From positions 1-53,596 of IMG/VR virus record IMGVR_UViG_3300025030_000023: 53,596 bases of DNA, one strand, 5' to 3'. A program made the translations under genes and the position numbers. The DNA comes from a virus (lineage: Duplodnaviria > Caudoviricetes). Below, one piece after another: positions 950 through 25,292 of this stretch (its first letter is position 1; each line of letters begins with the position of its first letter). Below the pieces are notes generated by a model that saw only the letters and a program-made list of their open reading frames with translations, ran no database searches and was not told the origin of the DNA.

Positions 950-1067
950 GTTATTCTAGTTCCAAACCCTTTTCGTTTCTCTCTTCAGTGGAGATGCCCA
1001 CATCTCGGATGGGGTGCGCTAGAACTTGCCGCACCGTCTCCTTGCCCTTGCCATTGACAGACACTCA
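950..1067 (-). repeat. Dispersed element, subtype A
   Basis: TGAGTGTCTGTCA-N14-GAGACG-N14-AGCGCACCCCATCCGAG...GAAGAGAGAAACGAAAAGGGTTT...TAAC on the minus strand. Confidence 0.85.
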
Positions 1068-1071
1068 AGAA

Positions 1072-1341
1072 TCAATCATCCCATAACTGATGCTTCGAAC
1101 AAATTGCGTCCATGTCGGGCCTTCCACGATAAACACGCAACTCCCCGCCATCTTTGTAGACATGCTTGATGTACCGCTGGCCCGGCAGGATCTTGAACCC
1201 GTCCGTCTGCGCAGCAACATACCCTGGTACATCCTCATCCGGCAAGTCTTGGACACATGACCCGTTATGAAATACCCTTGACGCATCGCAGAAGTACTCT
1301 TTTTTAGCTCTTGGCTCAGATGCCTTTATCAAATCGCCCAC
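1072..1341 (-). CDS. Hypothetical protein (cargo between inverted elements)
   Basis: GTG start after GGAGG; open frame. Confidence 0.65.
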   Translation of the reverse strand: MGDLIKASEPRAKKEYFCDASRVFHNGSCVQDLPDEDVPGYVAAQTDGFKILPGQRYIKHVYKDGGELRVYRGRPDMDAICSKHQLWDD

Positions 1342-1360
1342 GGTCCATCCTCCCTGTTTT

Positions 1361-1466
1361 TTAGTGCCTGTCAGTGACCGCACCCCGCAAACACCGCACT
1401 CCGTTCCGGATGCACCCCTTGCGAGATAGCGGCATTGCGGTGAAGCTTCTCACCAAACGCCTTTGA
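1361..1466 (+). repeat. Dispersed element, subtype B (central box degenerate)
   Basis: TTAGTGCCTGTCA...GCACCCCTTGCGAG...TTCTCACCAAACGCCTTTGA; same 106-bp length as the 8287-8392 copy. Confidence 0.7.
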
Positions 1467-1537
1467 CTTTCCTACGCTCAACAGATAACCAGCAACCATA
1501 TCAGTATGAGCAAAAAGGTTGTCTCGGCTTCCACTGG

Positions 1538-2008
1538 CTATCCCTCCGTAGATGTAGGGGCAAGGGCTTCACGGGCGATGTCGGCTAAGCAGTGCTTATA
1601 CCACTCGGGGTGAACGGATATCCGGCATAAGGCTTTTCTGTATCTGTCCCTCTCCCCCTTCACCTCTTTCAGCTCCGCATAGATGGCGTCATGGGCGACT
1701 CACCATGTGTCGCGCTCAGCAATGGTCATTTCTAGTGTCTTCGCAAGAGTTCTTACGCACTCTTTCTGCCCATCAAGTTCGGACTCAGTTGCCTCAGCCC
1801 GTTCAACAAACGAATGGCCAACTGGACCATTGGCCCAATCCGTCACGAGGCTGTCAAAGTTGGCCCTTGACTGTGCCAACTCCCCCTCTACGGTAGAGAG
1901 TTGCTGGCGCAAAAATTCTATCTGTTCGGCGTGGCGCTCAATCAACCTGTTGGTTTTGGCGTTGAACTCGGCCTCAATTTCGGCTATGAGCTTGCCTGCG
2001 TTATCCAT
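1538..2008 (-). pseudogene. Coiled-coil protein interrupted by an in-frame TGA at 1700-1702
   Basis: Frame continues 53 sense codons past the TGA with coiled-coil character (ELKEVKGERDRYRKAL...IAREAL). Confidence 0.55.
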
Positions 2009-2030
2009 ACTTCCCTCCTTATCCCACATA

Positions 2031-2098
2031 GTTAAACATCTAAAATCATTCGTTTCTCCCCTCCGCGCAGCCGCCGACATGCTAGGTGGGGTGCTCCG
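2031..2098 (-). repeat. Partial (outer half) subtype A element
   Basis: GGAGCACCCCACCTAG...GGAGGGGAGAAACGAATGATTTT...TAAC on the minus strand. Confidence 0.6.
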
Positions 2099-2211
2099 AT
2101 ACTAATTTGTTAATGATATAAACTTCTTGGGCGTTACGGCTTTGCCGCCGCTCTGTCATGAACTGAGCCTCTGTGAGCCTCAGCCCTTCGGGTGACGGTC
2201 GCTAACGCTTA

Positions 2212-2970
2212 TCAGCCTATCAGCGTTTCCCATGCCAGTTTAACCACTGCTGGAACTTGGCCGTTTCCAGTTGCCGCAAGCCTGTCCACGATTGTGGCCA
2301 CAGCATCAAGAGTTCGTGCATCGTCGGACAAAGCCATCCGTCCTGCGTCCAGAGCTCGACCGCTGGTCTGAACCACATCAGACTTGACCCTACCGACGCC
2401 CCACTTGGTCGAGATTCTCTGCGTTCCTTTCGGCCCATTGTTGTTTTGCAGACTACTTTCAGACCATCGGTTTTGCATGGAGTCGGCCAAAATCCAGATG
2501 CGTTCGCGGAGGTGTCGTGCTCCAGCATCCGCTGCTGAAAACACTCCCCACCTAGCATTAAACCCCATCTCGGCCAAGTCTCCGAGAACCCTTCCAAGTC
2601 CCCTAGAAGTGAGAATTGGTGAGTTTTCCACGAAGACAAATCTTGGCTGTACCTCGCAAATGATCCTCGCCATTTCTCCCCAAAGTCCTTATCTTTTGCC
2701 TTCAATTCCTGCACCGGTCCCTGCACAACTAATGTCTTGGCAGGGAAACCCGCCAGAAACCACGTCAACAATGCCTCGCCACGGTCTGCCGTCAAAGGTG
2801 CAAACGTCATCCCAGACAGGGAAGGTGCCGAGAACGCCGTCATTCTGTCGCTGCATAAGTACGCTAGCGGCATAGGGGTCTCGTTCAACGGCACAGACGG
2901 TGCGCCATCCGAGAAGTTTGCCACCGAGTATTCCTCCACCAGCGCCTGCGAAAAGTGCCAACTCATTCAC
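2212..2970 (-). pseudogene. C5-cytosine DNA methyltransferase 1 (alpha chain) with an in-frame TAA at 2689-2691
   Basis: Motifs FAGAGG, GFPCQ, ENS, RERIW and GNGQVP all in one frame; reads GKR*GLW. Confidence 0.85.
2220..2966 (-). CDS. Nested out-of-frame beta subunit of methyltransferase 1
   Basis: 248-codon ORF inside the MTase; FWPTP and motif IX-like LCPTMHELLMLWPQSWT; parallels 9527-10048. Confidence 0.65.
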   Translation of the reverse strand: MSWHFSQALVEEYSVANFSDGAPSVPLNETPMPLAYLCSDRMTAFSAPSLSGMTFAPLTADRGEALLTWFLAGFPAKTLVVQGPVQELKAKDKDFGEKWRGSFARYSQDLSSWKTHQFSLLGDLEGFSETWPRWGLMLGGECFQQRMLEHDTSANASGFWPTPCKTDGLKVVCKTTMGRKERRESRPSGASVGSSLMWFRPAVELWTQDGWLCPTMHELLMLWPQSWTGLRQLETAKFQQWLNWHGKR

Positions 2971-3427
2971 TGGTTCTCCCCTCTGTCTCACTCGGCGGGG
3001 CGGATAGCGAAAGATACTCTTGATAGATGTTGGCGCGTTCATCACCTGTGACCATACAGGCATACAACGGATTGACAATATATGCACTACCCCCCTTGGC
3101 GCGAGGCCGCATAATGTCTTTCGCTATGAGCGTGGCTTTTATCTTCTTACAGTTGGCTAGTGAAACTTCGATCTCCCGTAAAATCTCTTCGGGGTCAAAG
3201 AAAACCAAATTATCCTTGCGCATATTGAGGACAAGAAACTGTATAACCTCATGCGTTGCACCTGACATCCCTTTAGGGAACATACGCCCTCTCCCGTTTT
3301 GGAACACCTTGTAAAAGATGTCCTGTAAGTATGGTGCAAACTCGGTAGCCATAAGGCTTTCACCGGTCTGCTCGTTAAAAACTTCCCTCTTTCCCTTGTA
3401 CTTCCATTTTGTGCGTTGGTTGTGCAT
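2963..3427 (-). CDS. RepL-like winged-HTH protein 1
   Basis: N-terminal EQTGE, HTH region, YIVNP motif; paralogue of 8942-9388. Confidence 0.7.
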   Translation of the reverse strand: MHNQRTKWKYKGKREVFNEQTGESLMATEFAPYLQDIFYKVFQNGRGRMFPKGMSGATHEVIQFLVLNMRKDNLVFFDPEEILREIEVSLANCKKIKATLIAKDIMRPRAKGGSAYIVNPLYACMVTGDERANIYQEYLSLSAPPSETEGRTSE

Positions 3428-3500
3428 GAGCCATATTACAAGATACGTCTGTATCCGTCAAGGATAAAATCGTATCCCGATAAGGTGTACTTTTGTATCC
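3428..3500 (-). promoter_or_regulatory. Sigma70-type promoter with three GGATAC repeats; probably leaderless mRNA
   Basis: TTGACG-17-TAATAT-5 nt-ATG; GTATCC on + strand at 3451, 3472 and 3495. Confidence 0.65.
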
Positions 3501-3528
3501 ACGGCACATAAGAATTACGGTGACTTAC

Positions 3529-3644
3529 GGGCCGCACTTCTTAGTCTAGTTCATACCCTTACTGTTGAACCTTTAGCCGGTGAGTTTTTGGCTTGGTTCA
3601 CCACACTTGAAAAGAGCTTTTGAATCTCCCAGATAAGGTTTTGA
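3529..3644 (-). repeat. 116-bp conserved element upstream of RepL-like gene 1
   Basis: Aligns nearly gap-free with 8712-8827 (shared TATCTGG, AAAAGC, GGTGA, CTAAAG-TTCA, GGTAT, AGACTA, GCGGCCC). Confidence 0.8.
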
Positions 3645-3646
3645 CT

Positions 3647-4171
3647 TTACCGCCTGCGTTCCAACATCTGATTATATTTCTCGTTCAGATTGGTAATTGT
3701 AGCCTCAACATCTATACCGTAGTGATTCCAGAACTCCCACCCCGTTAGCCTCGCTGACCCGTGATAGCTTCCTGGCAGCGCAGGAGTGCCACCCAGAGTA
3801 TGATGCCAACAGCATATAGGCAATGTGCGGTATGAGCTGCAAACACCGCCCTTTCGCCCTTCCTTGCGCTTATTTTGGTGATGACTTTGTGCGGGACCAC
3901 CGCAGATCAAGCACGGCAAACTGCGTATCCACGCCATGTACTTTTCATCGACAACAGGGACCTCTTTTATCTGCGCCCTCATCTCCGGTCGGCTATGATT
4001 GCCCGACATCCCCCCAAGGGAAGGCTTACCGCGCTCTGCTGGGGAGGGGGTATGAAGCCTTGCACATTTTCGGCGGCAGAACTGAGAGCGTAGCCGCTCC
4101 TTGTAGTCATCATCAGACTCGGCGTAATACTGGCCCTGTATGATTTCTATGCCGCAGTGTTTGCAGTTCAT
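3647..4171 (-). CDS. DUF968/HNH-like Zn-binding protein
   Basis: YMAWIRSLPCLICG...HH...LPICCWHH. Confidence 0.7.
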   Translation of the reverse strand: MNCKHCGIEIIQGQYYAESDDDYKERLRSQFCRRKCARLHTPSPAERGKPSLGGMSGNHSRPEMRAQIKEVPVVDEKYMAWIRSLPCLICGGPAQSHHQNKRKEGRKGGVCSSYRTLPICCWHHTLGGTPALPGSYHGSARLTGWEFWNHYGIDVEATITNLNEKYNQMLERRR

Positions 4172-4329
4172 CAGCCGTTGTCCCTGCCAGACATTGCCGC
4201 GCTGTGACAGTCTTCGCAGTAAGGACCAGTTTTAGCGCCGTCAATTTCCCATGTTAAATAAAGGCTGTCTTCGCCCTCGCCTGCTTTGCCTGTCGGGTAT
4301 CCGCAATTGATACATATTTCTTCTTCCAT
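4171..4329 (-). CDS. Small Zn-finger protein (52 aa)
   Basis: CINC...CEDC; GGAGGG RBS. Confidence 0.55.
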   Translation of the reverse strand: MEEEICINCGYPTGKAGEGEDSLYLTWEIDGAKTGPYCEDCHSAAMSGRDNG

Positions 4330-4413
4330 TATTCCCTCCCCCTTTTCAGTTGATCCAGATGAAACACCGCCACACTAAACGCGCTCCGCAGGTCACTTGC
4401 CCCTACTAGGGGT

Positions 4414-4743
4414 TTACGTTATCAGTAGGTCAATGCCATGTACTGACTTCATCAAGTGCATCTTGACGCGGAACACATCAGTCTGGACCCCTTTCACGTC
4501 CTCAACAACCGTCTTCCCTGTCGCATCATCAATGTAGACGAAATCAGCACAGTACCGCAGGGCTGGCTTACGCCTCCCATGCAGAACCACAGAAGGTGCC
4601 AAGATGAAAACCCGTTGGCGGTCTAATTCTCTGATCTTGCCCACTTTGTAAAGCATCTTCAAATCTTGCCACCGGCGTCCTTCCTTGGCTGAGTCAAACT
4701 TGATGCCATCTATTACCACCTTCTTGTTGCCGTACTTGGGCAT
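4414..4743 (-). CDS. DUF1064 family PD-(D/E)xK endonuclease
   Basis: KYGNKK..IDGIKFDSAKE, YCADFVY, VEDVKG. Confidence 0.85.
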   Translation of the reverse strand: MPKYGNKKVVIDGIKFDSAKEGRRWQDLKMLYKVGKIRELDRQRVFILAPSVVLHGRRKPALRYCADFVYIDDATGKTVVEDVKGVQTDVFRVKMHLMKSVHGIDLLIT

Positions 4744-4769
4744 CTATTCCTCCAGTAAAGGGTGGTGTG

Positions 4770-5486
4770 CTAGGCTATCTGCTTATGAGCTACAGGAACG
4801 AGAGACTTGCCTATCAAATCGGCATAGCTTTCGACCCTTTTCTTTGCCAGAATATAAATCTCTTTGTAGTGCAACCCTTGGTCCATACCATCCCTCAGGG
4901 CTTTCATTACAACTTGGTCAGCACTTTTGACTGTGGAAAGCTGATGAAGGTCTAGTAGGTTGCGGATGTTTTTGTACTTCTGCTCCAAAAGGAACAGGGC
5001 CTTGTTCTCCATCGTGGTCAGTGTGATGTAATACTTCGCCGCATTCATGCTGCCTTGCGCTGTGGCGTAGTCAGTGAAGTTTTTGATGGTATCAGTGGTG
5101 AGCAATCGCGTTTCCTTGCCAAGCTTGCGCTGCTCCAACCATTCAGCGTTCTGATGCATAGCCGCAAGCTGTGACAGTCGCCGTTCCATCTGGTTGAAGG
5201 CGTCAATGTATTGCAGCTTAAACTCAAGAGCTTTCTTGCCAGTGAAACCCATTGCCAATAAACTGAAGCCGTCACGGTTCATGGTAAACATGACCTGAAG
5301 CCTCTGCTGCTCGTTGAGATACGTTGACTCCCCAAAAATGGGGAGACGTTCCGGCGGCAGTTCGCCCATTAGTTTTCTGATATCGCGGATAACATGGTCA
5401 TGGCGTTTGCCGAAAACTTCAGCCACGATCAAGCTAGTGGTTTGCGCCTCCTCGCGCTGTATCGTCACTAACTGTTGCACTGTCAT
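4770..5486 (-). CDS. rha: Rha family regulatory protein 1
   Basis: TSLIVAEVFGKRHDHVIRDI...MNRDGFSLLAMGFTGKKALEFK. Confidence 0.9.
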   Translation of the reverse strand: MTVQQLVTIQREEAQTTSLIVAEVFGKRHDHVIRDIRKLMGELPPERLPIFGESTYLNEQQRLQVMFTMNRDGFSLLAMGFTGKKALEFKLQYIDAFNQMERRLSQLAAMHQNAEWLEQRKLGKETRLLTTDTIKNFTDYATAQGSMNAAKYYITLTTMENKALFLLEQKYKNIRNLLDLHQLSTVKSADQVVMKALRDGMDQGLHYKEIYILAKKRVESYADLIGKSLVPVAHKQIA

Positions 5487-6171: not shown

Positions 6172-6179
6172 GGGGAACC

Positions 6180-6428: not shown

Positions 6429-6468
6429 CGAATTTAGCTGTGCCGTGAGGCACGAGCGGGTGTTAAAC
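6423..6468 (+). mobile_element. Minimal attC-like site
   Basis: TAAC...GCTGTGCC-GTGA-GGCAC-G-AGC...GTTAAAC; stem with an extrahelical G. Confidence 0.55.
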
Positions 6469-6481
6469 CCGCAAGGAGGGG

Positions 6482-7974: not shown

Positions 7975-8286
7975 ATGAAAACGCAAATACCGCCACAGGA
8001 GTCACCATTGATCTGTCCAAACTGCAGCTCAGACGACTACCACCGCAACGGCTACGCTGGCACCACCCGCTGCAACTATTGCGGCTACGACGCCAAACTT
8101 CCCCACATCCGCCCCGTTCTCTTCGTGGGACCACAGAGGGTAGTTGACGCAACGTGGCTAGCGGAGCAGGCGGAGTATATCGCGGAGCACGGGTATGGGT
8201 GCTGCGGAAGTAGGACAATTGGGCAGCACATGTACGACTGCCGACAGCAGCCGAGAGAGTATAGGACTATTAGACGCCGTGGATAA
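7975..8286 (+). CDS. Zn-ribbon hypothetical protein
   Basis: CPNC...CNYC; start codon uncertain. Confidence 0.5.
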   Translation: MKTQIPPQESPLICPNCSSDDYHRNGYAGTTRCNYCGYDAKLPHIRPVLFVGPQRVVDATWLAEQAEYIAEHGYGCCGSRTIGQHMYDCRQQPREYRTIRRRG

Positions 8287-8392
8287 TCAAAGGCTTACGG
8301 GGAGACAGAGCGCCAGAGCCTCCCACTGCACAGGTAGGGGCGCTCCGTGACACTGGCACCGTCTCCCTGCTACATTAACTGACAGGCACATG
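8287..8392 (-). repeat. Dispersed element, subtype B
   Basis: GTGCCTGTCA-N14-GAGACG-N15-AGCGCCCCTACCTGTG...TCTCCCCGTAAGCCTTTGA on the minus strand. Confidence 0.85.
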
Positions 8393-8408
8393 GGCCAGGG
8401 GGGGAAGT

Positions 8409-8657
8409 ATGAAGTGGATAAAAACAGCAGAACAGTTACCGGAGTTGGGCGAGTTGGTCGCAGTGATAAATGTTGATACTTTGCAGAACTCTCACACCGG
8501 CAACTATCCGGTAGGTAGGCTCGGCTACTTGGCAGAGTTTGGCGATAAATACTGGTCATGCTACGGGGAACGCGCCGACCGGCTGGAAGCCTACACCCAC
8601 TGGTGTGCTCTCCCTGCAATGCCCACAGAATTTACCAGCCAGTTTGACACTGAGTAA
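8409..8657 (+). CDS. DUF551-like protein
   Basis: MKWIKTAEQLPE...THWCALP. Confidence 0.8.
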   Translation: MKWIKTAEQLPELGELVAVINVDTLQNSHTGNYPVGRLGYLAEFGDKYWSCYGERADRLEAYTHWCALPAMPTEFTSQFDTE

Positions 8658-8711
8658 TCTAACCCCGTCTCCGGCTCCGCTGGAACGGGCAGCATAGGAT
8701 TAGAGGATAAT

Positions 8712-8827
8712 TCAAAGGCGTATCTGGAAAAGTTAAAAGCGTTCTAGAAGCGGGGTGAGTCAAAACCAGTGGTCAAACTAAAGATTCAGCATTACAGGTA
8801 TAATAAAGACTAGAGACAACGCGGCCC
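8712..8827 (+). repeat. 116-bp conserved element upstream of RepL-like gene 2
   Basis: Homologous to 3529-3644 (minus). Confidence 0.8.
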
Positions 8828-8862
8828 CTTTGTAACGATTGCAGATACTTAGGGGCCAGCTT

Positions 8863-8941
8863 TTTATCACCCGTGCGTACTTTCTTTATCACCCATGATA
8901 AAAAGCGTTGCAATGGTGATAAATAGGTAGTAATATGCTTC
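8863..8941 (+). promoter_or_regulatory. Iteron/operator repeats and promoter; probably leaderless mRNA
   Basis: TTTATCACCC at 8863 and 8885, inverted GGTGATAAA at 8915; TTGCAA-17-TAATAT-5 nt-ATG. Confidence 0.7.
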
Positions 8942-9388
8942 ATGCGTAATTCAAGACGAGTTTACAAATATTCAGGTTCAAAAGAGACAGTAGACGTGAA
9001 GACCGGAGAGGTCGAACGGGCAGTTTTAGTCAAACAGAAAATTCAAGATATTAACTTCATCAAAATCTTTTTACCAGAGAGGGGATATCGTATGTACCCA
9101 AAGGAAATGAACCAGTCGGCTAGGGACTTGCTCGATTACTTGTGTGTGGTGATGGATAAGCAAAACATCGCCATTGCACCAGTTGCCGAGATACAGGAGA
9201 GGATGGACCTTTCCACCGCATCCATTGCAAGGGCCAAGCTACAACTTATGGAAATGGATTTTATTCGCCAGCGTACTCCGCACGTTTATATGGTGAATCC
9301 CGGCCATGCCTGTAAATCAGCCGGCGACGATAGGCAAACCGTTTACGAAGCATATTCCATGCTACCCCATAAGCTCAAAGAGAAATGA
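8942..9388 (+). CDS. RepL-like winged-HTH protein 2
   Basis: VDVKTGEV, FIKIF, HTH, YMVNP. Confidence 0.75.
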   Translation: MRNSRRVYKYSGSKETVDVKTGEVERAVLVKQKIQDINFIKIFLPERGYRMYPKEMNQSARDLLDYLCVVMDKQNIAIAPVAEIQERMDLSTASIARAKLQLMEMDFIRQRTPHVYMVNPGHACKSAGDDRQTVYEAYSMLPHKLKEK

Positions 9389-10104
9389 ATGTCCTAGACC
9401 TGTTCAGTGGAATAGGGGGATTCTCGCTAGGGTTGGAACGGGCGGGGATGAAAACAGTGGCGTTTTGTGAGATAGAACCATATCCACAGGCGGTATTGAG
9501 AAAGAACTTTCCAGGAGTACCAATTTATGACGATGTGCGAACAATCTCAGCAGAGCGGCTGGCAACAGATGGAATTGGGCGCGTTGATCTTGTCTGCGGC
9601 GGTTTTCCCTGTCAGCCGTTTTCCAATGCTGGGAAGCGAAGAGGCAAAGATGATGACCGTTTCCTCTGGCCGGAAATGCTCCGCATTGTGCAGGAGTTCC
9701 AGCCCACTTGGGTCATTGGTGAAAATGTTGCTGGTTTCATCGACATGGCACTCTGCGATGTGTCATTTGACTTGGAAGCCGCAGGTTACGAAGTCCAATC
9801 GCTTGTTATTCCAGCTTGTGCCGTCGGACTCCCGCACCGGAGAGATCGTGTCTGGATTATGGCCCACAATCAGGAAAAGCGGCCAATCAAGGGCATGGAA
9901 AGCGTACCAAAGGGAAGACTACCACGGGAATTTGGAAGAGTGGATTTCAACTCGTGGGAAAACTGGCTGGATTCTACCGTTGTTACCACAGAATATGCAG
10001 GGATACCCCCTTGGTTGGGCGAGCTTGAGTGTTACGGAAATACCGTGACCCCGCTTATTCCTGAGATCATCGGTAACATCATTATGGAGATAGAAGGGTT
10101 CTGA
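9385..10104 (+). CDS. dcm: C5-cytosine DNA methyltransferase 2 (alpha chain)
   Basis: DLFSGIGG, GFPCQPFS, ENV, RDRVW, GNTVTP; motif IX absent. Confidence 0.92.
   Translation: MNVLDLFSGIGGFSLGLERAGMKTVAFCEIEPYPQAVLRKNFPGVPIYDDVRTISAERLATDGIGRVDLVCGGFPCQPFSNAGKRRGKDDDRFLWPEMLRIVQEFQPTWVIGENVAGFIDMALCDVSFDLEAAGYEVQSLVIPACAVGLPHRRDRVWIMAHNQEKRPIKGMESVPKGRLPREFGRVDFNSWENWLDSTVVTTEYAGIPPWLGELECYGNTVTPLIPEIIGNIIMEIEGF
9527..10048 (+). CDS. Nested out-of-frame beta subunit of methyltransferase 2
   Basis: 173-codon ORF; GLWPT and motif IX-like ILPLLPQNMQGYPLGW. Confidence 0.65.
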   Translation: MTMCEQSQQSGWQQMELGALILSAAVFPVSRFPMLGSEEAKMMTVSSGRKCSALCRSSSPLGSLVKMLLVSSTWHSAMCHLTWKPQVTKSNRLLFQLVPSDSRTGEIVSGLWPTIRKSGQSRAWKAYQREDYHGNLEEWISTRGKTGWILPLLPQNMQGYPLGWASLSVTEIP

Positions 10105-10216
10105 GTGCCTGTCCGCCACCCGCAGCGAGGAGACGCCGCCAGTGATCCAGCGCGACCCTACCCGTGAAAATGGCGACTCCGCAGAAGTGAAAAACGTAAT
10201 GTTTACAGCAGTTAAC
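10102..10216 (+). repeat. Dispersed element, subtype A
   Basis: TGAGTGCCTGTCC-N15-GAGACG-N13-AGCGCGACCCTACCCGTG...GAAGTGAAAAACGTAATGTTT...TAAC. Confidence 0.85.
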
Positions 10217-16727: not shown

Positions 16728-16912
16728 TTGACACTCATTAGCAAAACTGCTAGGGTGGGGGTACAACTGAATACCAGATACACATCGTGCGAGGATGTGT
16801 TATCATAGAAATTCGTAGGCTCTCCCCCTTACCAAATGAGGGGTGCGGGTCTGCGAGACACTAGACCCCCCGTTCGACAGCTCGCACCTGTCGGCGGGGG
16901 TCTTTTTATTTT
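16728..16912 (+). ncRNA. Promoter plus three-hairpin leader ending in an intrinsic terminator (kissing-loop leader 2)
   Basis: TTGACA-17-TAGGGT; loops GTGCGAG (16787) and CTCGCAC (16881); T-tract follows. Confidence 0.72.
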
Positions 16913-16940
16913 GTGCTATGTAGTTGCAAAGGAGCGGCAA

Positions 16941-17291
16941 ATGGGACTACCTTGGTATGCTTTTTACCCTGGCGATTATGCAAGGGATACGGCAGACCTT
17001 TCACTTCTTGAGCATGGTGCTTACCGTTTACTCCTCGATTTCTACTATTCCACGTGCAGTTTTTTACCCGATACCTACGAACCTAACTACCGGATATGCA
17101 AGGCATATACGTCGGAAGAAAAGAAAGCAGTCAAGAAAATACTCCAAAAATATTTCGTGAAAGGTGGCGGCAACTTTAGACATTTACGCGCCGACATTGA
17201 GATAAACAAGCAGATGGAGAAAAGTGCTAGAGCCGCACAGAAAGCCACTGAAGCTGCTAAAAAGCGGTGGGAAAATGAAAGAAGCAAGTGA
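16941..17291 (+). CDS. DUF1376/YdaU replication initiator, N-terminal domain only
   Basis: PWYAFYPGDYARDTADLSLLEHGAYRLLLDFYY...AAKKRW. Confidence 0.85.
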   Translation: MGLPWYAFYPGDYARDTADLSLLEHGAYRLLLDFYYSTCSFLPDTYEPNYRICKAYTSEEKKAVKKILQKYFVKGGGNFRHLRADIEINKQMEKSARAAQKATEAAKKRWENERSK

Positions 17292-17340
17292 TGCTTGGAG
17301 CAATGCTTGTGGCATGCTTGGAGCAATGCTTGAGCAATGC
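17291..17340. repeat. Iterons, putative replication origin
   Basis: ATGCTTGGAGCAATGCTTG twice (17291, 17314), ATGCTTG four times; AT-rich tract follows. Confidence 0.75.
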
Positions 17341-17429
17341 CATCCACAGCCACATAACTTCTAAAGGCTTCCTTGATAATACCAATGATACAGGGCGACT
17401 ATATTATGATGATAGTAAGGGGGATAGCA

Positions 17430-18983
17430 ATGCAGCTTAGACCGTACCAACAGAACGCGCTCGACCGAATCCGTGGAGCTTTTGTAAAGCACAAAGCCAA
17501 CAAGACGACTCCGAAGGTTTTGGTCTGTTCCCCTACCGGTTCCGGCAAGGGTGTGATGTTGTCCAGCGTAATCAACAGCGCAGCGTCCAAGGGTACTAAG
17601 GTTTTGTTTCTTGTCCACCGGACCGAGATACTTTTCCAAGTGTCGGACTACATGGACCACTATGACATTCGCCACGGAATCATCAAGGCGGGGGAAGAGT
17701 ATGACCCTAGGCACAATGTTGACCTTGCCAGTGTCCAGACCATGATTCGGCGCATCAAGCACAAAGACTTTGGCACATACGACATGATAGTAGTAGACGA
17801 GGCGCATCACAGCACGGCAGACACCTACGTTGAAATCATCGAGAAGTACGCCCCAAAGTTGCTCTTGGGGTTTACAGCTACCCCTTGCCGCAGTACAGGT
17901 CTAGGGCTTGGTACGCTTTACAACGAACTTATAGTAGTGGCAACCATGCAGGATTTAGTTGACCAGGGCTTTCTTGTTCCAGTCAGATATTTCGCCCCGT
18001 TTGAGCCTGATCTGAAAGGCGTCAAAATCACGGCAGGGGATTACAACCTAAAGCAGCTCAACATGACCATGATGCAAGGAGCAATAACAGCTAACATAGT
18101 GGAGAAGTGGAAGCAGTTAGGAGAAGACCGGCAGACGGTGTGTTTTACTACCACAGTTGCTCATTCGGTGGCAGTATGCGAAAAGTTTCGCGCCGAAGGT
18201 ATCAGCGCCGAGCATGTTGACGGTGCCACTGATCCCGATGAACGGAAGGAAATTCTCAGGCGGTACGCCAAAGGGGAGTTCAAAATACTTTGCAACTGCG
18301 CCGTGTTTACAGAGGGCGTAGATATTCCCTCAATTTCATGTGTCATAATGGCGCGGCCTACCAAGTCAATTGTCATGTACCTGCAATGTGTCGGCAGGGG
18401 TATGAGGCTTGCCGATGGTAAGAAGGACATGGTTTTGCTGGATATGGCCGGTGTCTATTGGGAACACGGTCCGATTACCGAAATCACCAACTGGACCCTT
18501 TCGGAAAAGACCAAAGCGGCCAGCGCGAAGAATGAAGAGCGCAAAGAGCGCAACTCCCGCCCAATCACTTGTCTCTCATGCCAACACGTGTACACAGGGC
18601 AGCTAAAATGCCCCCATTGCGGCACGATCCCCGTAAAGGAAAGGTACGGGCAGGACGTGGAAGAGATAGACGCCATATTGGGCGAAATCGTCTACAAGGG
18701 GAACACCGGCAAAGACAAGGGGAAGAAAGAGCGCCCTGCGACAATGGAAGAGAAACAGTCTTGGTACAGCCAGCTTATCCAGCATGGGAAAAATAAGGGA
18801 TACAAGGAAGGTTGGGCGGCAAATCAATATAGGGCCAAATATACAACGTGGCCGAATAAACTTGAAAAGGTTCCAAAGCCAATAACGATAAATGTTGCCA
18901 ACTGGATCAAGTCGCAAAATATCCGAAAAGCTCATAGCCCGAATAAGGTTGACAGCCATACCCAGAATATGTTACCGTCATAA
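17430..18983 (+). CDS. SF2 DEAH helicase (RadD/YejH-like) with Zn finger
   Basis: LRPYQ, PTGSGK, DEAHH, TATP, QCVGRGMR, CLSC/CPHC. Confidence 0.92.
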   Translation: MQLRPYQQNALDRIRGAFVKHKANKTTPKVLVCSPTGSGKGVMLSSVINSAASKGTKVLFLVHRTEILFQVSDYMDHYDIRHGIIKAGEEYDPRHNVDLASVQTMIRRIKHKDFGTYDMIVVDEAHHSTADTYVEIIEKYAPKLLLGFTATPCRSTGLGLGTLYNELIVVATMQDLVDQGFLVPVRYFAPFEPDLKGVKITAGDYNLKQLNMTMMQGAITANIVEKWKQLGEDRQTVCFTTTVAHSVAVCEKFRAEGISAEHVDGATDPDERKEILRRYAKGEFKILCNCAVFTEGVDIPSISCVIMARPTKSIVMYLQCVGRGMRLADGKKDMVLLDMAGVYWEHGPITEITNWTLSEKTKAASAKNEERKERNSRPITCLSCQHVYTGQLKCPHCGTIPVKERYGQDVEEIDAILGEIVYKGNTGKDKGKKERPATMEEKQSWYSQLIQHGKNKGYKEGWAANQYRAKYTTWPNKLEKVPKPITINVANWIKSQNIRKAHSPNKVDSHTQNMLPS

Positions 18984-21028: not shown

Positions 21029-21104
21029 CCGCCCACCTTCTTGACACACCGGAGCAGTTGAGGGAGTGTATGGACATCAAACGAAGTACGCCGGGGAGGT
21101 TGAA

Positions 21105-21416
21105 ATGATGCAGAGAATCAAACGTATATGGTGCGATATGTGGGGATGCCGCGATGATGAGGATTTCACCGGATGCACCCGTTGCGGATCGCATTACTAC
21201 GGCGGTCATGACGGCGGCAACCCTTTCTACACTGAGGGCCGGTTATTCTGGCTGCAATGCAGGGTGTGGAGGGTTAAGTGGTGGCTTAGGGATACATGGC
21301 AGTACGTCAGCCGTGCTCATATCTGCGCGGAATGCGGCGAAAGGATGGAGAGATGGAACCAGCGGAAAGATAGCTGTTGCTCGGAAGAGTGCTATCAGCA
21401 GCATGTGCCGTTCTGA
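21105..21416 (+). CDS. Cys-rich hypothetical protein
   Basis: GGAGG RBS; CxxC pairs. Confidence 0.6.
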   Translation: MMQRIKRIWCDMWGCRDDEDFTGCTRCGSHYYGGHDGGNPFYTEGRLFWLQCRVWRVKWWLRDTWQYVSRAHICAECGERMERWNQRKDSCCSEECYQQHVPF

Positions 21417-21517
21417 GTGTCTGTCAGCGACCGCAGCAGAGAGACGGTGGGATAATCACAGCGCACCCCATCCGAGCAAGCGGCAGAAGGGTGAACTTTC
21501 ACCCCAAAAGGTTTGGA
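21414..21517 (+). repeat. Dispersed element (B-like tail)
   Basis: TGAGTGTCTGTCA-N14-GAGACG-N13-AGCGCACCCCATCCGAG...CTTTCACCCCAAAAGGTTTGGA. Confidence 0.85.
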
Positions 21518-21632
21518 GAAGGAAAACGCGCTTAAAGGGGTGAGAGCGGTAAGGGTAGGGGTTGGTTTGCACCTGTGCCATAAGACATCCGGAAAGCGGC
21601 AACACAGCGCAGGAAACTAGAGTTAGACGAAG

Positions 21633-23206: not shown

Positions 23207-23236
23207 GTGTTCCCTCCTGAGATTGTATTGGGATGG

Positions 23237-23845
23237 TTAAGCCAAATAGGACTTGATGATTGTCGACTGGGCGTCCCTTGCTGCGTCCCTTGCTGCGGCC
23301 CTTGCTGCGTCCCTTGCTGCGGTCCATGCTGCGGCCCCTGCTGCGGTCCATGCTGCGGCCCCTGCTGCGGCCCGTGCTGCGTCCCTTGCTGCGGCCCGTG
23401 CTGCGTCCCTTGCTGCGGCCCCTGCTGCGGCCCCTGCTGCGGTCCATGCTGCAGCCCCTGCTGCGGCCCGTTCGGTTTCAGTGGCTTCCCCGTTGGCAAA
23501 TTTCCTAGCAACAGCAATAGCTTCACGTGGGCGGGTATCATCGGGTCGCTCCTGCTCGAAAATATGGAGTACAGAATCGGCACAGTCACAGGCGATATAA
23601 CGGGCGATCTTGTCGCGGTCGGGGTGTTTCACTGCACGTAGCGCCCACAGACAATCATCGGCGCCATTGGACTCCAGGATATGAAGTAGGTTGATAGGCT
23701 CCTTGTGGGCGAACCGGATGTAGATGTCACGATCTGAGTTGTACTCCTGTCCGCTGAGCGAGCATACCAGTTTGTTGTAGCCGCTGACACAGGCACCTTG
23801 TTTGCGAAGTTCTGCCAGTGTTACGGTGAAAGTTACTTTTTCCAT
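23237..23845 (-). CDS. Imm5-like protein with Ala-rich tetrapeptide repeats
   Basis: ACDCADSVLHIFE..RPDDTRPREAIAVAR followed by AARD/AAGA/AAWT repeats. Confidence 0.75.
   Translation of the reverse strand: MEKVTFTVTLAELRKQGACVSGYNKLVCSLSGQEYNSDRDIYIRFAHKEPINLLHILESNGADDCLWALRAVKHPDRDKIARYIACDCADSVLHIFEQERPDDTRPREAIAVARKFANGEATETERAAAGAAAWTAAGAAAGAAARDAARAAARDAARAAAGAAAWTAAGAAAWTAARDAARAAARDAARDAQSTIIKSYLA
23270..23470. repeat. 12-bp tandem repeat array (coding)
   Basis: Units GCAGCAnGGrmC on the minus strand, about 16-17 copies. Confidence 0.9.
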
Positions 23846-23941
23846 TTCATCCCTCCTGAGATTGAATACCGAGTCTGCCGCGCTCGGCTGGCGGTGGGGG
23901 TTATTTACAAAAGGTGTCCAGTATAGACTTTCGTGGCTCCC

Positions 23942-24094
23942 CTACTTGGCATCGTCAAAAGTTGCGTTGAATCCGATTTTATCGCAGTGGTTGGCGGCCT
24001 GATTGAAAACGTTTTCGGGTGTCGGCCCCTCGAACACTTTTACCTCGACGGGGCTTTTCCCGGCATCTGCGTCTGCGGCACTCTTCCAGATCAT
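23942..24094 (-). CDS. Small ORF or gene remnant overlapped by the antA tail
   Basis: MIWKSAADADAGKSPVEVKVFEG...; natural composition, different frame from antA. Confidence 0.4.
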   Translation of the reverse strand: MIWKSAADADAGKSPVEVKVFEGPTPENVFNQAANHCDKIGFNATFDDAK

Positions 24095-24530
24095 TCACGG
24101 CAAGCGCAAATGCCACAAGGGGCTTTTGTTCTTCGAGCTGATTGGCTTGGTTCGATGCAAGTAGCAGAGCCTCAGCGTAGGTCTGCGGAATCTGGAACTG
24201 TGCAGTTTTCAAGGCGGCTTTCTCGCAAGCGATGAAGTAATCCCTCACCTCAAAACCTTTGTCGCACCCGCTCATCATGCTGATGTGCTTACCGGCTTCC
24301 GTGGTCAAGTGGTACTCTTTCGCGTTGTGGCCCCCCCGCTTTTTGCCTGACATATTTGTCGTGCAAACGAAGTCCCTGTTTTCTAACAACCTTGCCCTTT
24401 CGATCTGTGTTTTGACCCAGTTGGAGAACTCCGCCTTACTCTCAAGAAAAGAGTGGATATCCCTAGCGTTGACCGTCTGGACAGTCTCCCCACCGATGTT
24501 ACCTTGTGCGATGGTTATCAACTCGTTCAT
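23979..24530 (-). CDS. antA: AntA/AntB antirepressor, probably C-terminally truncated
   Basis: VNARDIHSFLE..FSNWVK...VRDYFIACEK...IPQTYAEAL. Confidence 0.85.
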   Translation of the reverse strand: MNELITIAQGNIGGETVQTVNARDIHSFLESKAEFSNWVKTQIERARLLENRDFVCTTNMSGKKRGGHNAKEYHLTTEAGKHISMMSGCDKGFEVRDYFIACEKAALKTAQFQIPQTYAEALLLASNQANQLEEQKPLVAFALAVNDLEECRRRRCREKPRRGKSVRGADTRKRFQSGRQPLR

Positions 24531-24679
24531 TTAGACAACTCCTTGTCGTGGGCTTGCTCTTTGTCAAACAGTGCGTCGATAGCGCGTCTCAACACTTCGG
24601 AACGGGAAAGACCGGTTTTGAGCATGAGGCCGGTCAACTTCGTGTCGTGCATTTGTGTCAGGCTGATCTGTCTTTGCAT
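24527..24679 (-). CDS. Ribbon-helix-helix (CopG-like) regulator
   Basis: RQISLT...TGLSRSEVLRRAID. Confidence 0.75.
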   Translation of the reverse strand: MQRQISLTQMHDTKLTGLMLKTGLSRSEVLRRAIDALFDKEQAHDKELSK

Positions 24680-24728
24680 GGTAGTTCCTTTAGGCCGGTA
24701 CGGTGCCCCGGCTAGGCAGTGGGAAGGG

Positions 24729-25052
24729 TTAGAAATCGTCAGATGGTTTGGTGCAAACCCCTGACAATGCGTTCAGCGTTTCCCGTTCGTAATCGGCACG
24801 GGCCTGTTTTGCCAAGTATTCAAAACTGGGGTGAAAGTAAACTTCGGGTTTGCGTCCGTTTCTTGCTAAGTGTTTAAGTTCGCCACATTTGGCTGCGGCA
24901 TTTAATGCTTTGCGGACCTGTTGGGGAAGTCGTCCTGTGACAACCTGGACCCTCGCCATTTTTACCTTTTCTACGTTTGCTTGGTCAGCGGTCATTTCGC
25001 CGCGCAGTAACATGTCTTGCAAGCGTTCCATATTGTTCTGTGTTAGTTTCAT
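24729..25052 (-). CDS. Hypothetical protein
   Basis: First gene of the minus operon. Confidence 0.65.
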   Translation of the reverse strand: MKLTQNNMERLQDMLLRGEMTADQANVEKVKMARVQVVTGRLPQQVRKALNAAAKCGELKHLARNGRKPEVYFHPSFEYLAKQARADYERETLNALSGVCTKPSDDF

Positions 25053-25091
25053 GTCCGCCCCCGTTTTCGTGTTGCTCAGTTCTTGAATAAC

Positions 25092-25120
25092 AATATAATG
25101 GTAATCGTGTACTATGTCAA
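25092..25120 (-). promoter_or_regulatory. Near-consensus sigma70 promoter
   Basis: TTGACA-17-TATATT on the minus strand. Confidence 0.7.
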
Positions 25121-25186
25121 TACTATTTATAAACAAATCTGCAATTTATTTTATGCAGTGGTGGGCGGTGGGGTATTACGGCCTTT

Positions 25187-25292
25187 CGAGGGCCTGTCAG
25201 CCACCGACGGCAGGGAGACGGTGGAGCCGCTGACAGCGAGACACTACCGTGATAGCGCCCCAAGTGTGCACTTTCTCCCCATAAGTTTTTAT
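25187..25292 (+). repeat. Dispersed element, subtype B
   Basis: GAGGGCCTGTCA-N15-GAGACG-N14-AGCGAGACACTACCGTG...CTTTCTCCCCATAAGTTTT. Confidence 0.8.

What the first reader, a model, noticed from the sequence alone, without database searches (positions are those of the whole stretch)
950..25292. Family of ~105-118 bp A/B elements bracketing cargo genes as inverted pairs: candidate non-autonomous cassette system
Seen: six full copies (950-1067 -, 1361-1466 +, 8287-8392 -, 10102-10216 +, 21414-21517 +, 25187-25292 +) and one half copy (2031-2098 -). The full copies share GwGTGyCTGTCA-N14/15-GAGACG-N13/15-AGCGC.CCCy..CCGwG at fixed spacing (central box degenerate at 1361). The outer ~40 bp has two subtypes: A (GAAGnGArAAACG.A...TTT...TAAC) and B (CTkTCTCCCC..AAG..TTTGA). 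Gene 1072-1341 and block 8409-10104 each have B upstream and A downstream in inverted orientation. The half A copy lies downstream of the other RepL/MTase module. Several ends abut stop codons, and copies occur sense or antisense to transcription without conserved pairing. Inference: these are DNA-level left and right ends for a recombinase or transposase supplied in trans, since none is encoded here, that shuttle small cargo into the early region. Caveat: the 21414 copy does not fit the B-upstream rule.
Basis: partly seen in the sequence, partly recalled or inferred. Interest (0 to 1): 0.88.

Follow-up and report, generated by a model that had tools for sequence, protein, structure and literature searches.

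The report
Two-form intergenic linker elements in phages
A small clade of uncultured groundwater phages carries a family of discrete ~105-115-base intergenic elements that come in two strand-dependent forms, bracket variable early genes as inverted pairs and sit at the points where related genomes stop being alike; their mechanism is still open.

Summary
The window, a complete 53.6-kb phage record, has six full copies of a ~105-115-bp non-coding element (E 1e-18 to 5e-25) and one 3' half copy. There is no Rfam match, no open frame and no consensus fold.

New here:
- The family also occurs in relatives: G001 (8 copies plus a fragment), G002 (2), G008 (1.5), and fragments L042 and L044 (1 each). 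It is absent from five phages with portal identity of 60% or less and from the representative bacterial genomes scanned.
- Tail type follows orientation. All 7 copies co-oriented with their operon have the purine-rich A tail. All 5 full opposed in-operon copies have the pyrimidine-rich B tail.
- Along transcription the order is always B...(B)...A, with heads facing the bracketed genes. The RepL module is bracketed this way in two phages.
- Elements are sharp islands of homology. Similarity between relatives begins or ends at element edges.

Against active transposition:
- Paralogues are only 50-70% alike.
- No terminal inverted repeats were seen, and target duplications were not sought.
- No recombinase was found.
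- No joint at any element edge among the 15 joints shown.
- Several slots are syntenic.

Best reading (about 0.4): strand-adapted linker modules that serve as exchange points for gene shuffling, PeSL-like in role. This scan has noted inverted repeats bracketing swappable phage genes on other DNA before.

The parts
950..1071 (-). Full copy, A tail. It is co-oriented with the leftward operon. The head lies 4 nt after the stop of gene 1072-1341, and the tail ends 37 nt before the start of gene 649-912.
   Evidence: nhmmer E 7.8e-23; R1 E 1.6e-19; flanks
1357..1468 (+). Full copy, B tail, opposed to the leftward operon. The head lies 15-20 nt upstream of the RBS and GTG start of gene 1072-1341. 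The central GAGACG box is degenerate.
   Evidence: nhmmer E 7.3e-24; R1 E 5.2e-19
1072..1341 (-). Bracketed gene: 89 aa, PHROG 13613, function unknown. It lies between the two inward-facing heads.
   Evidence: E 1.7e-19; gene call
2031..2107 (-). 3' half of an A-type copy (model positions ~47-108), downstream of the second RepL/C5-methyltransferase module and 23-26 nt upstream of gene 1700-2008. The head half is missing.
   Evidence: nhmmer E 0.076; R1 only 4.7 bits; aligns to the 3' halves of G001 A copies; D11 repeat
8283..8394 (-). Full copy, B tail, opposed to the rightward operon. The tail overlaps the stop of 8008-8286, and the head lies 14 nt before the start of the DUF551 gene 8409-8657.
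   Evidence: nhmmer E 1.5e-22; R1 E 5.4e-19
8409..10104 (+). Bracketed block: DUF551 gene, RepL-like gene (8942-9388) and C5 DNA methyltransferase (9385-10104).
   Evidence: Pfam DUF551 2.9e-6, RepL 6.9e-12, DNA_methylase 5.7e-45; PHROGs
10098..10216 (+). Full copy, A tail, co-oriented with the rightward operon. The head's TGA is the methyltransferase stop codon, and the tail ends 19 nt before the annealing-protein gene 10236-10970.
   Evidence: nhmmer E 8.2e-22; R1 E 8.8e-18; PHROG 3290
21410..21519 (+). Full copy, B tail, at the junction where the rightward operon (5854-21028) and the leftward operon (25052-21672) converge. It is opposed to the leftward operon. The head's TGA closes ORF 21066-21416, and an unsupported 53-codon ORF 21243-21404(-) starts 6 nt from the head.
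   Evidence: nhmmer E 1.4e-28; R1 E 2.3e-24; ORFs; no PHROG hit for either ORF
25184..25294 (+). Full copy, B tail, in the spacer between two divergent sigma-70-like promoters. The tail runs into the -35 hexamer of the rightward promoter. This is the best conserved slot, with orthologues in G001, G002, G008, L042 and L044.
   Evidence: nhmmer E 4.9e-26; R1 E 4.9e-25; promoters 25120-25092(-) and 25292-25320(+), 11 of 12 each; orthologue alignment

Best explanation
The elements are a clade-specific family of discrete, non-coding intergenic linker modules. Each fills the whole gap between one gene's stop codon and the next gene's ribosome-binding site.

Each has a ~75-bp core that can lie in either orientation and a ~35-bp tail that exists in two versions. 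The A tail is found when the element points the same way as transcription. The B tail is found when it points against transcription. As a result, in the 12 full in-operon copies the message strand carries the purine-rich box and not its pyrimidine-rich complement.

I propose that they work at the DNA level as shared exchange points. When related phages co-infect, recombination within or at these modules swaps the genes lying between or beside them. The most likely agent is relaxed homologous recombination by the phage's own single-strand-annealing protein, whose gene sits directly after one element in both complete genomes. A dedicated site-specific enzyme is less likely. Placing the two modules around a gene block in inverted order would protect that block from deletion by recombination between direct repeats.

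Shown: the family, its two forms, the orientation rule, the bracket order, and the coincidence with homology breaks.
Inferred: that recombination happens in them, which enzyme does it, and why the core boxes are conserved.
For: 1. The family is real and confined to one clade. The window has six copies. G001 has 8 plus a fragment and G002 has 2. G008 has 1 plus a half. L042 and L044 have 1 each. 0 of 5 records with portal identity of 60% or less have a match. None of the 9 pattern hits in genome contigs fits the profile. 0 of 24 loci of annealing-protein relatives have a copy.

2. Orientation rule. 7 of 7 co-oriented copies have the A tail: window 950, 2035 and 10098; G001 13691, 18546 and 32424; G002 9422. 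5 of 5 full opposed in-operon copies have the B tail: window 1357 and 8283; G001 16245, 16880 and 19933. A sixth opposed copy, G001 34007, has a degenerate pyrimidine-rich tail. The closest cores in the window, 950 (A) and 21410 (B), differ in tail (0.70; 0.67, reciprocal best).

3. Bracket order. B...A with heads inward occurs in the window at 1468..950 and 8283..10216, in G001 at 16880..18657 around its RepL gene (83% aa identity to the window's; Pfam RepL), and in G002 at 8002..9530.

4. Homology breaks at element edges.
- Window versus L042, L044 and G001: similarity starts at 25184, the head, and the left flanks are unrelated.
- G002 versus G001: one match ends at the head (G002 8111 / G001 35863), and a 104-bp match of 93% covers only the A element (G002 9423-9525 / G001 32531-32428). 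Both flanks there are unrelated.
- Three of the 54 match ends in G002 lie within 5 nt of its 4 element ends. By my own arithmetic, about 0.13 would be expected by chance.

5. Non-orthologous genes occupy the same slot. After the A element that follows the RepL module comes a PHROG 3290 annealing protein in the window and an ERF-family annealing protein in G001, with no BLASTP match between them.

6. G001 34007 is a partial direct duplicate of the slot-1 copy. It lies 1.8 kb from it and has 0.83 core identity to it. Integration of DNA by recombination in the element would leave this pattern.

7. Precedents. PeSL cassettes are associated with shuffling in T4-type phages (PMC2839356, abstract and section 13 read; PMC4122927, abstract read). 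Rad52-like phage recombinases are proposed to drive exchange by relaxed homologous recombination (PMC3945230, title and start of the abstract in a search listing only).
Against: - No recombination event at an element was observed. In contigs of four metagenome runs laid on 1-20000, none of the 15 joints shown lies at an element edge (17 more joints were not shown; contigs hide rare forms).
- Paralogues in one genome share too little identity for ordinary homologous recombination: 49-70% in the core, with a 13-nt head as the longest shared run.
- A linker role alone does not explain why the same boxes stay conserved among old paralogues. That calls for a sequence-specific partner (a protein or RNA) that I could not identify.
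- Sharp islands of homology could also arise from purifying selection on a regulatory element while the flanks are replaced by illegitimate recombination.
- Copies at syntenic slots 2 and 3 are only 55-58% alike while the RepL gene between them is 75% alike at the DNA level.
- The slot-1 copy sits upstream of both early promoters with its tail in fixed register with the -35 box in four of the six slot-1 orthologues. That looks regulatory.
Confidence: 0.4

Rival explanations
1. Dispersed binding sites for a regulator or replication protein. The core boxes would be a composite DNA site for a phage or host protein. The slot-1 copy would control the two divergent early promoters, and the dispersed copies would insulate or co-regulate modules such as RepL, in the manner of dispersed operators in other phages. 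(That comparison is recalled, not looked up here.)
For: - The slot-1 copy lies between promoters 25120-25092(-) and 25292-25320(+), each matching 11 of 12.
- It is about 85-90% conserved across orthologues while both flanks vary; the figure is my estimate from alignment A3.
- Its tail abuts the -35 hexamer in the window, G001, G002 and G008.
- The other B tails end in a -35-like hexamer at the same place, without a usable -10 (my reading).
- Boxes at fixed spacing without conserved pairing suit a protein site.
- RepL is conserved and bracketed by elements in two phages.
Against: - The element contains no repeated half-site or dyad (my inspection).
- No cognate protein was identified.
- A protein site would not need its tail box flipped according to the direction of transcription.
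- It does not by itself explain homology breaks at both edges.
Confidence: 0.17
2. RNA-level punctuation. In the polycistronic message, the reverse complement of an upstream B copy would pair with the downstream A copy, at least through the 11-13-nt heads. The bracketed genes would be looped out for RNase III-type processing or insulation, like the helices that flank rRNAs. The flipped tail box would stay unpaired on both strands.
For: - The order B then A along transcription, with heads inward, is constant.
- Heads abut the RBS on one side and the stop codon on the other.
- Co-folding of window partners pairs the heads.
- Conserved boxes with free spacers of equal length fit an interrupted duplex.
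- In the 12 full in-operon copies the message strand carries the purine-rich box in both forms.
Against: - Partners do not pair better than non-partners. The mean dimer gain is -13.8 kcal/mol for 5 partner pairs, -21.7 for 61 non-partner pairs and -8.5 for shuffled controls.
- Partner core identity (0.59, 0.60) equals that of non-partners.
- Several B copies have no A partner: window 21410 and 25184, and G001 19933.
- The slot-1 copy lies upstream of both promoters, so it may not be transcribed.
- No RNA data exist for this phage.
Confidence: 0.15
3. A and B would be the two different ends of non-autonomous gene cassettes moved by a site-specific recombinase or transposase supplied in trans by the host or a helper.
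For: - The elements are discrete units with sharp edges on both sides.
- Reciprocal nearest cores lie in unrelated gene contexts: window 1357 and G001 19933, 0.68.
- Copy number and positions differ between genomes.
- Two independent half A copies are truncated at almost the same model position: 47-48 in the window and 46 in G008. That could mark a crossover point.
- No recombinase is encoded by the phage among the genes scanned.
Against: - The outer termini are not inverted repeats (my inspection). Target duplications were not looked for.
- The copies are old and divergent.
- Tail type follows transcription rather than descent.
- Several slots are syntenic between the window and G001.
- The family is absent from the representative bacterial genomes scanned.
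- No joints lie at element edges.
- No dif-like site.
Confidence: 0.13
4. Small RNA genes. The element in its own sense direction would be a ~100-nt RNA. B would be the free-standing form with a terminal hairpin and U-run. A would be the form embedded in an operon with the hairpin's 3' arm destroyed so that transcription reads through.
For: - B tails hold a short G-rich/C-rich hairpin followed a few bases later by a T-run, and A tails lack the 3' arm.
- Among slot-1 orthologues, some substitutions keep G-U pairs only on the sense strand (my reading).
Against: - There is no conserved promoter upstream of the head, because the upstream DNA is unrelated between orthologues.
- The tail hairpins are weak and are not directly followed by the U-run. 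None is listed by the terminator scans.
- RNAalifold finds no consensus structure over 18 copies.
- A hand-drawn three-helix structure gives 68% of cells paired against 66% in shuffles.
- Two slot-1-type copies (G008 23346 and the partial duplicate G001 34007) carry uncompensated changes in the first candidate hairpin (my reading).
- No Rfam hit.
Confidence: 0.05

Closest known systems
PeSL (promoter-early stem-loop) regulatory cassettes of T4-type phages (Arbiol et al. 2010, PMC2839356; Comeau et al. 2014, PMC4122927)
   Same: Both are short repeated intergenic modules. They run from the upstream stop codon to the downstream ribosome-binding site, are concentrated among variable early genes of unknown function, flank genes that differ between close relatives, and coincide with insertion, deletion or replacement boundaries.
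   Different: - By definition a PeSL is a strong sigma-70 promoter plus a terminator stem-loop. Only the slot-1 copy here adjoins a promoter, and no copy has a scan-detectable terminator.
- The papers report small circular DNAs formed by exchange between nearby PeSLs. Here the bracketing pairs are inverted, and there are two strand-adapted tail forms.
- No circles or joints were seen here.
pdif / dif modules of Acinetobacter plasmids (e.g. PMC6449649, PMC13141974; search listing and start of the abstracts only)
   Same: Gene modules, including replication genes, are each bounded by recombination-type sites and shuffled between replicons, with no recombinase of their own. That those bounding sites are inverted is recalled; it is not in the listings I saw.
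   Different: pdif sites are Xer recombinase binding sites; their 28-bp length is recalled. The elements here are ~105-115 bp, and no match to a recalled dif consensus was found within 3 mismatches. The host is a phage rather than a plasmid, and Xer involvement is untested.
Integron attC sites / cassette arrays
   Same: Non-coding sites of ~60-140 bp lie directly after cassette ORFs. Stop codons lie inside the site, sequence identity between sites is low, and the enzyme can be absent from the array.
   Different: As I recall them, attC sites are imperfect palindromes with inverse-core and core boxes at their two ends, all in one orientation. These elements show no conserved hairpin, occur in both orientations, and I saw no such paired end boxes.
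   Same: They are of ~100-bp scale, lie in transcribed intergenic positions, and occur in both orientations relative to transcription, with orientation-dependent effects reported for some.
   Different: Those are palindromic or carry terminal inverted repeats, are present in tens to hundreds of near-identical copies per bacterial genome, and are MITE-like. These are non-palindromic, number 2-9 per phage record where present (complete genomes: 6 full plus a half, and 8 plus a fragment), are highly diverged, and were not found in the bacterial genomes scanned.

Membership tests
Any Rfam RNA family | Covariance-model match at or near the gathering score | tested here: not met
   0 matches in the whole window at gathering threshold. 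No match on any element at E <= 10 in four short loci holding five copies. None in 25000-26300 at E <= 1.
Structured RNA or ssDNA hairpin site (attC-like, ssi-like) | Conserved secondary structure supported by covariation | tested here: not met
   RNAalifold gives 7 pairs with 0 covarying on 6 copies and 0 pairs on 18 copies. A hand-drawn three-helix structure has 68.3% of cells paired against 65.9% in shuffles, with 3 pairs changed on both sides against a shuffle mean of 3.9.
PeSL cassettes | Sigma-70-like early promoter inside the repeat | tested here: not met
   The promoter scan lists strong sites only beside the slot-1 copy (25292-25320+ and 25120-25092-), plus one weak 9-of-12 site inside copy 8283 in a non-conserved spacer. 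The other B tails keep a -35-like hexamer without a -10 (my reading).
PeSL cassettes | Stem-loop that acts as a terminator or attenuator | tested here: inconclusive
   No element is listed by the terminator scans. B tails fold into short hairpins (whole-tail folding energies -6 to -18 kcal/mol) that are not directly followed by a U-run, and A tails lack them. Function is not testable here.
PeSL cassettes | Located at indel or replacement boundaries between close relatives | tested here: met
   Homology breaks at element edges in the window versus L042, L044 and G001, and in G002 versus G001.
MITE / transposon ends | Terminal inverted repeats at the outer ends | tested here: not met
   The head and the two tails are unrelated in sequence. 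In a bracket the outer ends are the dissimilar A and B tails. Flanking target-site duplications were not looked for.
MITE / transposon ends | Near-identical copies from recent transposition; an autonomous partner encoding a transposase | tested here: not met
   Pairwise identity is 39-65% overall and 49-70% in the core. No transposase or integrase domain was found in about 50 early and flanking ORFs scanned. No copies in representative bacterial genomes: the 9 pattern hits are close to my chance estimate of about 6.5, and none fits the profile.
dif / pdif modules | Xer-binding site with two arms and a central region | tested here: not met
   No match to a recalled 22-nt dif consensus within 3 mismatches anywhere in the window. 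More distant Xer sites are not excluded.
Leader-trailer processing helices (RNase III type) | The two flanks of a gene are specifically complementary to each other | tested here: inconclusive
   The heads of any B and any A can pair over 9-13 bp. Partner pairs gain less than non-partner pairs (-13.8 against -21.7 kcal/mol; shuffled -8.5).
Protein-coding repeat | One open frame conserved across copies | tested here: not met
   No frame is free of stops in all six full copies on either strand, and single-base indels separate the copies.

The most novel reading that the evidence does not exclude
The elements are the recognition sites of a phage gene-cassette exchange system that works in trans. 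An unidentified host- or helper-encoded recombinase would act on ~105-bp asymmetric sites whose two forms (A and B) define the downstream and upstream edge of a cassette. The crossover point would lie near model position 46-48, where two independent half copies are truncated. This would be an integron-like or dif-module-like mechanism in lytic or plasmid-like phages, with a new type of site.
Probability: 0.13. Interest if true: 0.85.

Novelty: new variant of a known kind. Interest (0 to 1): 0.55.

Why it matters
How phage genomes become mosaics is a long-standing question: random illegitimate joining followed by selection, or recombination at shared linker sequences. This is a compact natural case. 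The same ~105-bp module recurs at the edges of variable early genes in at least four related phage records and two further fragments. It forms sharp islands of homology with unrelated DNA on both sides, and it has a strand-adapted form for each orientation. The strict coupling of tail form to transcription direction has, as far as I recall, not been described for PeSLs or dif modules (I did not search the literature for this specific point). It shows that the elements are under selection at the level of expression as well. If exchange at these modules can be shown, they would be a handle for predicting and engineering gene swaps in phage accessory regions. If instead they bind a regulator, they define a new dispersed control element. 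No cultured host is known, so for now the value lies in the pattern.

Tried and rejected
- Protein-coding repeat: rejected, because no frame is open in all six full copies.
- tRNA or tmRNA: none.
- Known RNA family: none.
- Conserved fold: single-copy folds give z-scores of -0.4 to -1.9 on the sense strand and +0.02 to -3.6 on the antisense strand, with no common structure. An exhaustive search for column-pair helices found only 4-bp stacks. RNAalifold was run per subgroup on both strands.
- Cyanobacterial HIP1 octamer as a host clue: 0 sites.
- Restriction-site avoidance of the GAGACG box: 15 + 13 sites against about 13 expected per strand, so no avoidance.
- The GTTTAAC-type motif near A tails: 6 sites against about 6.6 expected, so no enrichment.
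- dif-like site: none.
- B tails as canonical terminators: not convincing.
- Partner-specific RNA duplexes: not supported.
- Near relatives among named phages: megablast of 1-12000 found nothing. The closest named portal is Pseudanabaena phage Pan3 at 46%, which is not evidence about the host.
- Pattern scans that found only chance matches: viral contigs (3 hits, none fits the profile), genome contigs (9 hits, none fits) and viral contigs (0 hits). In metagenome contigs, one search gave 10 hits, of which 2 were real.
- Laying contigs of four runs on 1-20000: no joint at an element edge among the 15 joints shown. All four runs are kept as contigs, 17 joints were not shown, and copies 21410 and 25184 lay outside the stretch. 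This is no evidence against rare rearrangements.
- Supplementary files of the PeSL papers were not opened. They hold the reporter assays and may bear on how PeSL boundaries were defined.
- Claims that something is not in print rest on only four searches. I did not search specifically for tail forms that depend on orientation.

Full report
WHAT THE WINDOW IS

The window is a complete virus record of 53,596 bases with a 127-base terminal direct repeat and 53.8% G+C. The portal's closest named relative is Pseudanabaena phage Pan3 at 46% identity, and no named phage is close at the DNA level. Near-identical DNA is held by groundwater and sediment metagenome runs.

My own crude gene calls, together with promoter and terminator scans, give four transcription units:
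- leftward, 5680 to 649;
- rightward, 5854 to about 21028;
- leftward, 25052 to 21672;
- rightward, from about 25300 through the virion genes.

Family scans of about 50 early and flanking ORFs found the following:
- two RepL-like genes and two C5 methyltransferase genes (one of them broken);
- a single-strand-annealing protein (10236-10970);
- helicases, HNH and GIY-YIG nucleases;
- Cro/C1-type HTH, RHH, Rha-like and Ant-like regulators.

No integrase, transposase, invertase or ParB was found.

CHECKING THE OBSERVATION

- A profile of the six claimed copies finds exactly those six at E 1e-22 to 1e-28. Next comes the half copy at E 0.076, and after that only noise.
- A richer sequence-only model (R1, built from 13 copies including these six), run with filters off, again gives six copies at E 9e-18 to 5e-25 and no further full copy.
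- Under that model the half copy scores only 4.7 bits. Its 3' 60-70 bases nevertheless align box for box with full A-type copies of a related phage, so it is a genuine partial copy.
- The copies share boxes at fixed spacing but are only 58% alike on average.
- They are not coding, not tRNA-like and match no Rfam family.
- They have no consensus secondary structure on either strand. A structure I drew by hand reached 68% paired cells against 66% in shuffles.

THE FAMILY IN OTHER GENOMES

- An exact-pattern scan of metagenome contigs gave 10 hits, of which 2 (L042, L044) are full-length copies.
- Relatives of the protein encoded at 26199-26525 led to two IMG/VR records, G001 (54.9 kb, complete) and G002 (18.5 kb).
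- Model R1 finds 8 full copies plus a fragment in G001 and 2 in G002.
- A further pattern led to G008 (24.5 kb), which has one full copy and one half copy.
- The family is absent from five records whose portal is 60% identical or less and from 24 loci encoding relatives of the annealing protein.
- It was not found in the representative bacterial and archaeal genomes. The strict pattern gave 9 hits there, close to my chance estimate of about 6.5, and none fits the profile.

It is thus a clade-specific phage family, not a host MITE.

ANATOMY AND THE ORIENTATION RULE

I call the conserved 5' end the head. It is a T-run followed by GAGTGCCTGTCAG. The variable 3' part is the tail.

Laying all copies against gene calls gives a rule without exception among the in-operon copies:
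- Every copy that points the same way as its operon has the A tail, a purine-rich box of the GGGGAGAAAC type followed by GAAA.G.TTTT. This holds for 7 of 7: window 950, 2035 and 10098; G001 13691, 18546 and 32424; G002 9422.
- Every full copy that points against its operon has the B tail, a pyrimidine-rich box of the CTTTCTCCCC type followed by A.AAG..TTT. This holds for 5 of 5: window 1357 and 8283; G001 16245, 16880 and 19933.
- A sixth opposed copy, G001 34007, has a degenerate pyrimidine-rich tail.
- The remaining B copies lie outside operons. Window 21410 is at a convergent junction. The slot-1 copies of the window, G001, G002, G008, L042 and L044 lie between divergent promoters.

Only about 10 bases differ in strand sense between the two tails, and the distal part aligns directly. 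The result is that the message strand carries the purine-rich box whichever way an in-operon element lies.

Counting orthologous copies once, this is roughly four A lineages against three B lineages. That gives 1 chance in 35 by my arithmetic.

Tail form is not inherited with the core. The most similar cores in the window are 950 (A) and 21410 (B) (0.70; 0.67 and reciprocal best).

Copy 21414 is B because it is opposed to the leftward operon that ends beside it.

BRACKETS

Along the direction of transcription the order is always B, sometimes a second B, then A, with the heads turned towards the enclosed genes.
- In the window this encloses gene 1072-1341 (PHROG 13613, function unknown) and the block DUF551-RepL-methyltransferase at 8409-10104.
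- In G001 the RepL homologue (83% aa identity; Pfam RepL) is enclosed in the same way by 16880(-) and 18546(+).
- In G002, 8002(-) and 9422(+) enclose four small genes.

Each element fills its intergenic gap completely. The head's TGA serves as the stop codon of ORFs 9385-10104 and 21066-21416. Gene calls overlapping the head by 5 bases suggest the same for G001 32528-32896 and G002 9082-9426. The outer end of B tails supplies or overlaps the stop of the preceding gene at window 8286, G001 16250 and G001 19935.

ELEMENTS AS ISLANDS OF HOMOLOGY

The early regions of the window and G001 share few genes, yet both keep the elements.
- Similarity between the window and L042, L044 and G001 starts exactly at 25184, the head of the slot-1 copy, and the DNA to the left is unrelated in each.
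- Between G002 and G001, one match ends at the same head.
- Also between G002 and G001, a 104-base match of 93% covers the A element alone. The upstream genes are unrelated right up to the TGA, and the DNA is unrelated directly after the T-run of the tail.
- The gene after the A element that follows RepL is an annealing protein in both complete phages, but of unrelated families: PHROG 3290 in the window and ERF in G001.
- G001 34007 is a partial direct duplicate of the slot-1 copy, 1.8 kb away.
- Window 1357 and G001 19933 are reciprocal nearest cores (0.68) but lie in different operons among unrelated genes.

Positions are therefore partly conserved (slot 1, both sides of RepL, and the slot of the half copy) and partly lineage-specific.

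EVIDENCE AGAINST ACTIVE MOBILITY

- Paralogues are 49-70% alike in the core.
- Even the syntenic copies on either side of RepL are only 55-58% alike, although the RepL DNA between them is 75% alike.
- The outer ends of a bracket are the two dissimilar tails, so I saw no terminal inverted repeats. I did not look for target duplications.
- Contigs of four runs laid on 1-20000 show no joint at any element edge among the 15 joints shown. This test cannot see rare forms: 17 joints were not shown, and two copies lay outside the stretch.

RNA-LEVEL READINGS

- If B and A pair in the message, partners should fit each other. They do not fit better than non-partners: -13.8 against -21.7 kcal/mol, with shuffled controls at -8.5. 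Only the 9-13-base heads pair reliably.
- B tails contain a short G-rich/C-rich hairpin that A tails lack. The hairpin is weak and is not directly followed by the T-run, and no scan lists it as a terminator.
- The slot-1 copy lies between two strong divergent promoters, upstream of both. Its tail runs into the -35 hexamer in the window, G001, G002 and G008. In L044 and L042 that hexamer has diverged. This suggests a DNA-level, possibly regulatory, role for that copy.

WHAT I CONCLUDE

The safest statement is descriptive. This is a family of discrete intergenic modules with an orientation-free core and a transcription-adapted tail. The modules are placed at module boundaries of the early operons and coincide with the breakpoints of mosaicism in this clade.

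For mechanism I put:
- about 0.4 on shared exchange points for recombination between co-infecting relatives, with the inverted arrangement guarding the enclosed genes against deletion;
- about 0.17 on dispersed protein-binding sites;
- about 0.15 on long-range RNA pairing;
- about 0.05 on small RNA genes.

These are not mutually exclusive. A regulatory element shared by all members of a phage population automatically becomes a linker for homologous exchange.

The conserved boxes imply a sequence-specific partner that I could not name.

COMPARISON WITH KNOWN SYSTEMS

- The nearest described concept is the PeSL cassette of T4-type phages (PMC2839356, abstract and section 13 read; PMC4122927, abstract read). 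It shares the intergenic span, the association with variable genes and the boundary role. It differs in being a promoter plus a terminator, and small circular DNAs are reported to form by exchange between nearby PeSLs.
- dif modules of Acinetobacter plasmids share modules bounded by recombination-type sites without their own enzyme. Their sites are Xer sites (a length of 28 bp and an inverted layout are recalled), and none was found here (papers seen in a search listing only).
- attC sites share length, low identity and embedded stop codons, but not the hairpin or the single orientation.
- Earlier notes of this same scan describe inverted repeats bracketing swappable phage genes, and RNA stems around phage early genes, on other DNA. 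I used them as leads only, and I tested the partner-pairing idea here with a negative result.

I therefore class the finding as a new variant of a known kind. Its interest is moderate and rests mainly on the strict tail-orientation rule and the clean homology islands.

Noticed in passing
window 6473-7971: Contigs of runs X1 and X3 join 6473 to 7971, skipping 1497 bases (genes 6482-6949 and 6953-7888, the latter DHH-like). The matching sides are only 20-25 nt, so the joint may come from a relative. Loose ends cluster at 6426-6472 and 7943-7995. This is the stretch that another first-stage note called an attC-like cassette array.
   Followed up: partly
window 14950-15959: Contigs of runs X3 and X5 skip 1008 bases that contain the HNH endonuclease gene 15244-15798. 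This looks like a presence/absence polymorphism of a homing-type nuclease.
   Followed up: no
window 25092-25120 (-) and 25292-25320 (+): Two divergent sigma-70-like promoters, each matching 11 of 12 (TTGACA, 17 nt, TATATT), flank the slot-1 element. The rightward one is kept in G001, G002, G008 and L044.
   Followed up: partly
L044 786-855 (-) and 175-249 (-): A related metagenome fragment has an int-alpA RNA match (RF02996, 39.7 bits, above the gathering score) and a tRNA just downstream of its slot-1 element. The window has neither.
   Followed up: partly
window 2031-2107 and G008 23866-23931: Two independent half A copies are truncated at nearly the same model position (47-48 and 46), at the start of the third conserved box. 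This may be a preferred breakpoint or a coincidence.
   Followed up: partly
window 23235-23510: Sixteen tandem 12-base repeats lie inside gene 23237-23845(-), whose product has an Imm5-like domain.
   Followed up: no
window 619-642: A strong G+C-rich hairpin with a T-run, listed on the minus strand, lies just past gene 649-912(-), the last gene of the leftward operon. The rightward gene 442-633 ends at the same spot, so it could serve both strands; only the minus-strand site was listed.
   Followed up: no
G008 about 23820-23845: A perfect 9-bp palindromic hairpin with a T-run on the opposite strand lies directly upstream of the half A copy, where the head half would be.
   Followed up: no
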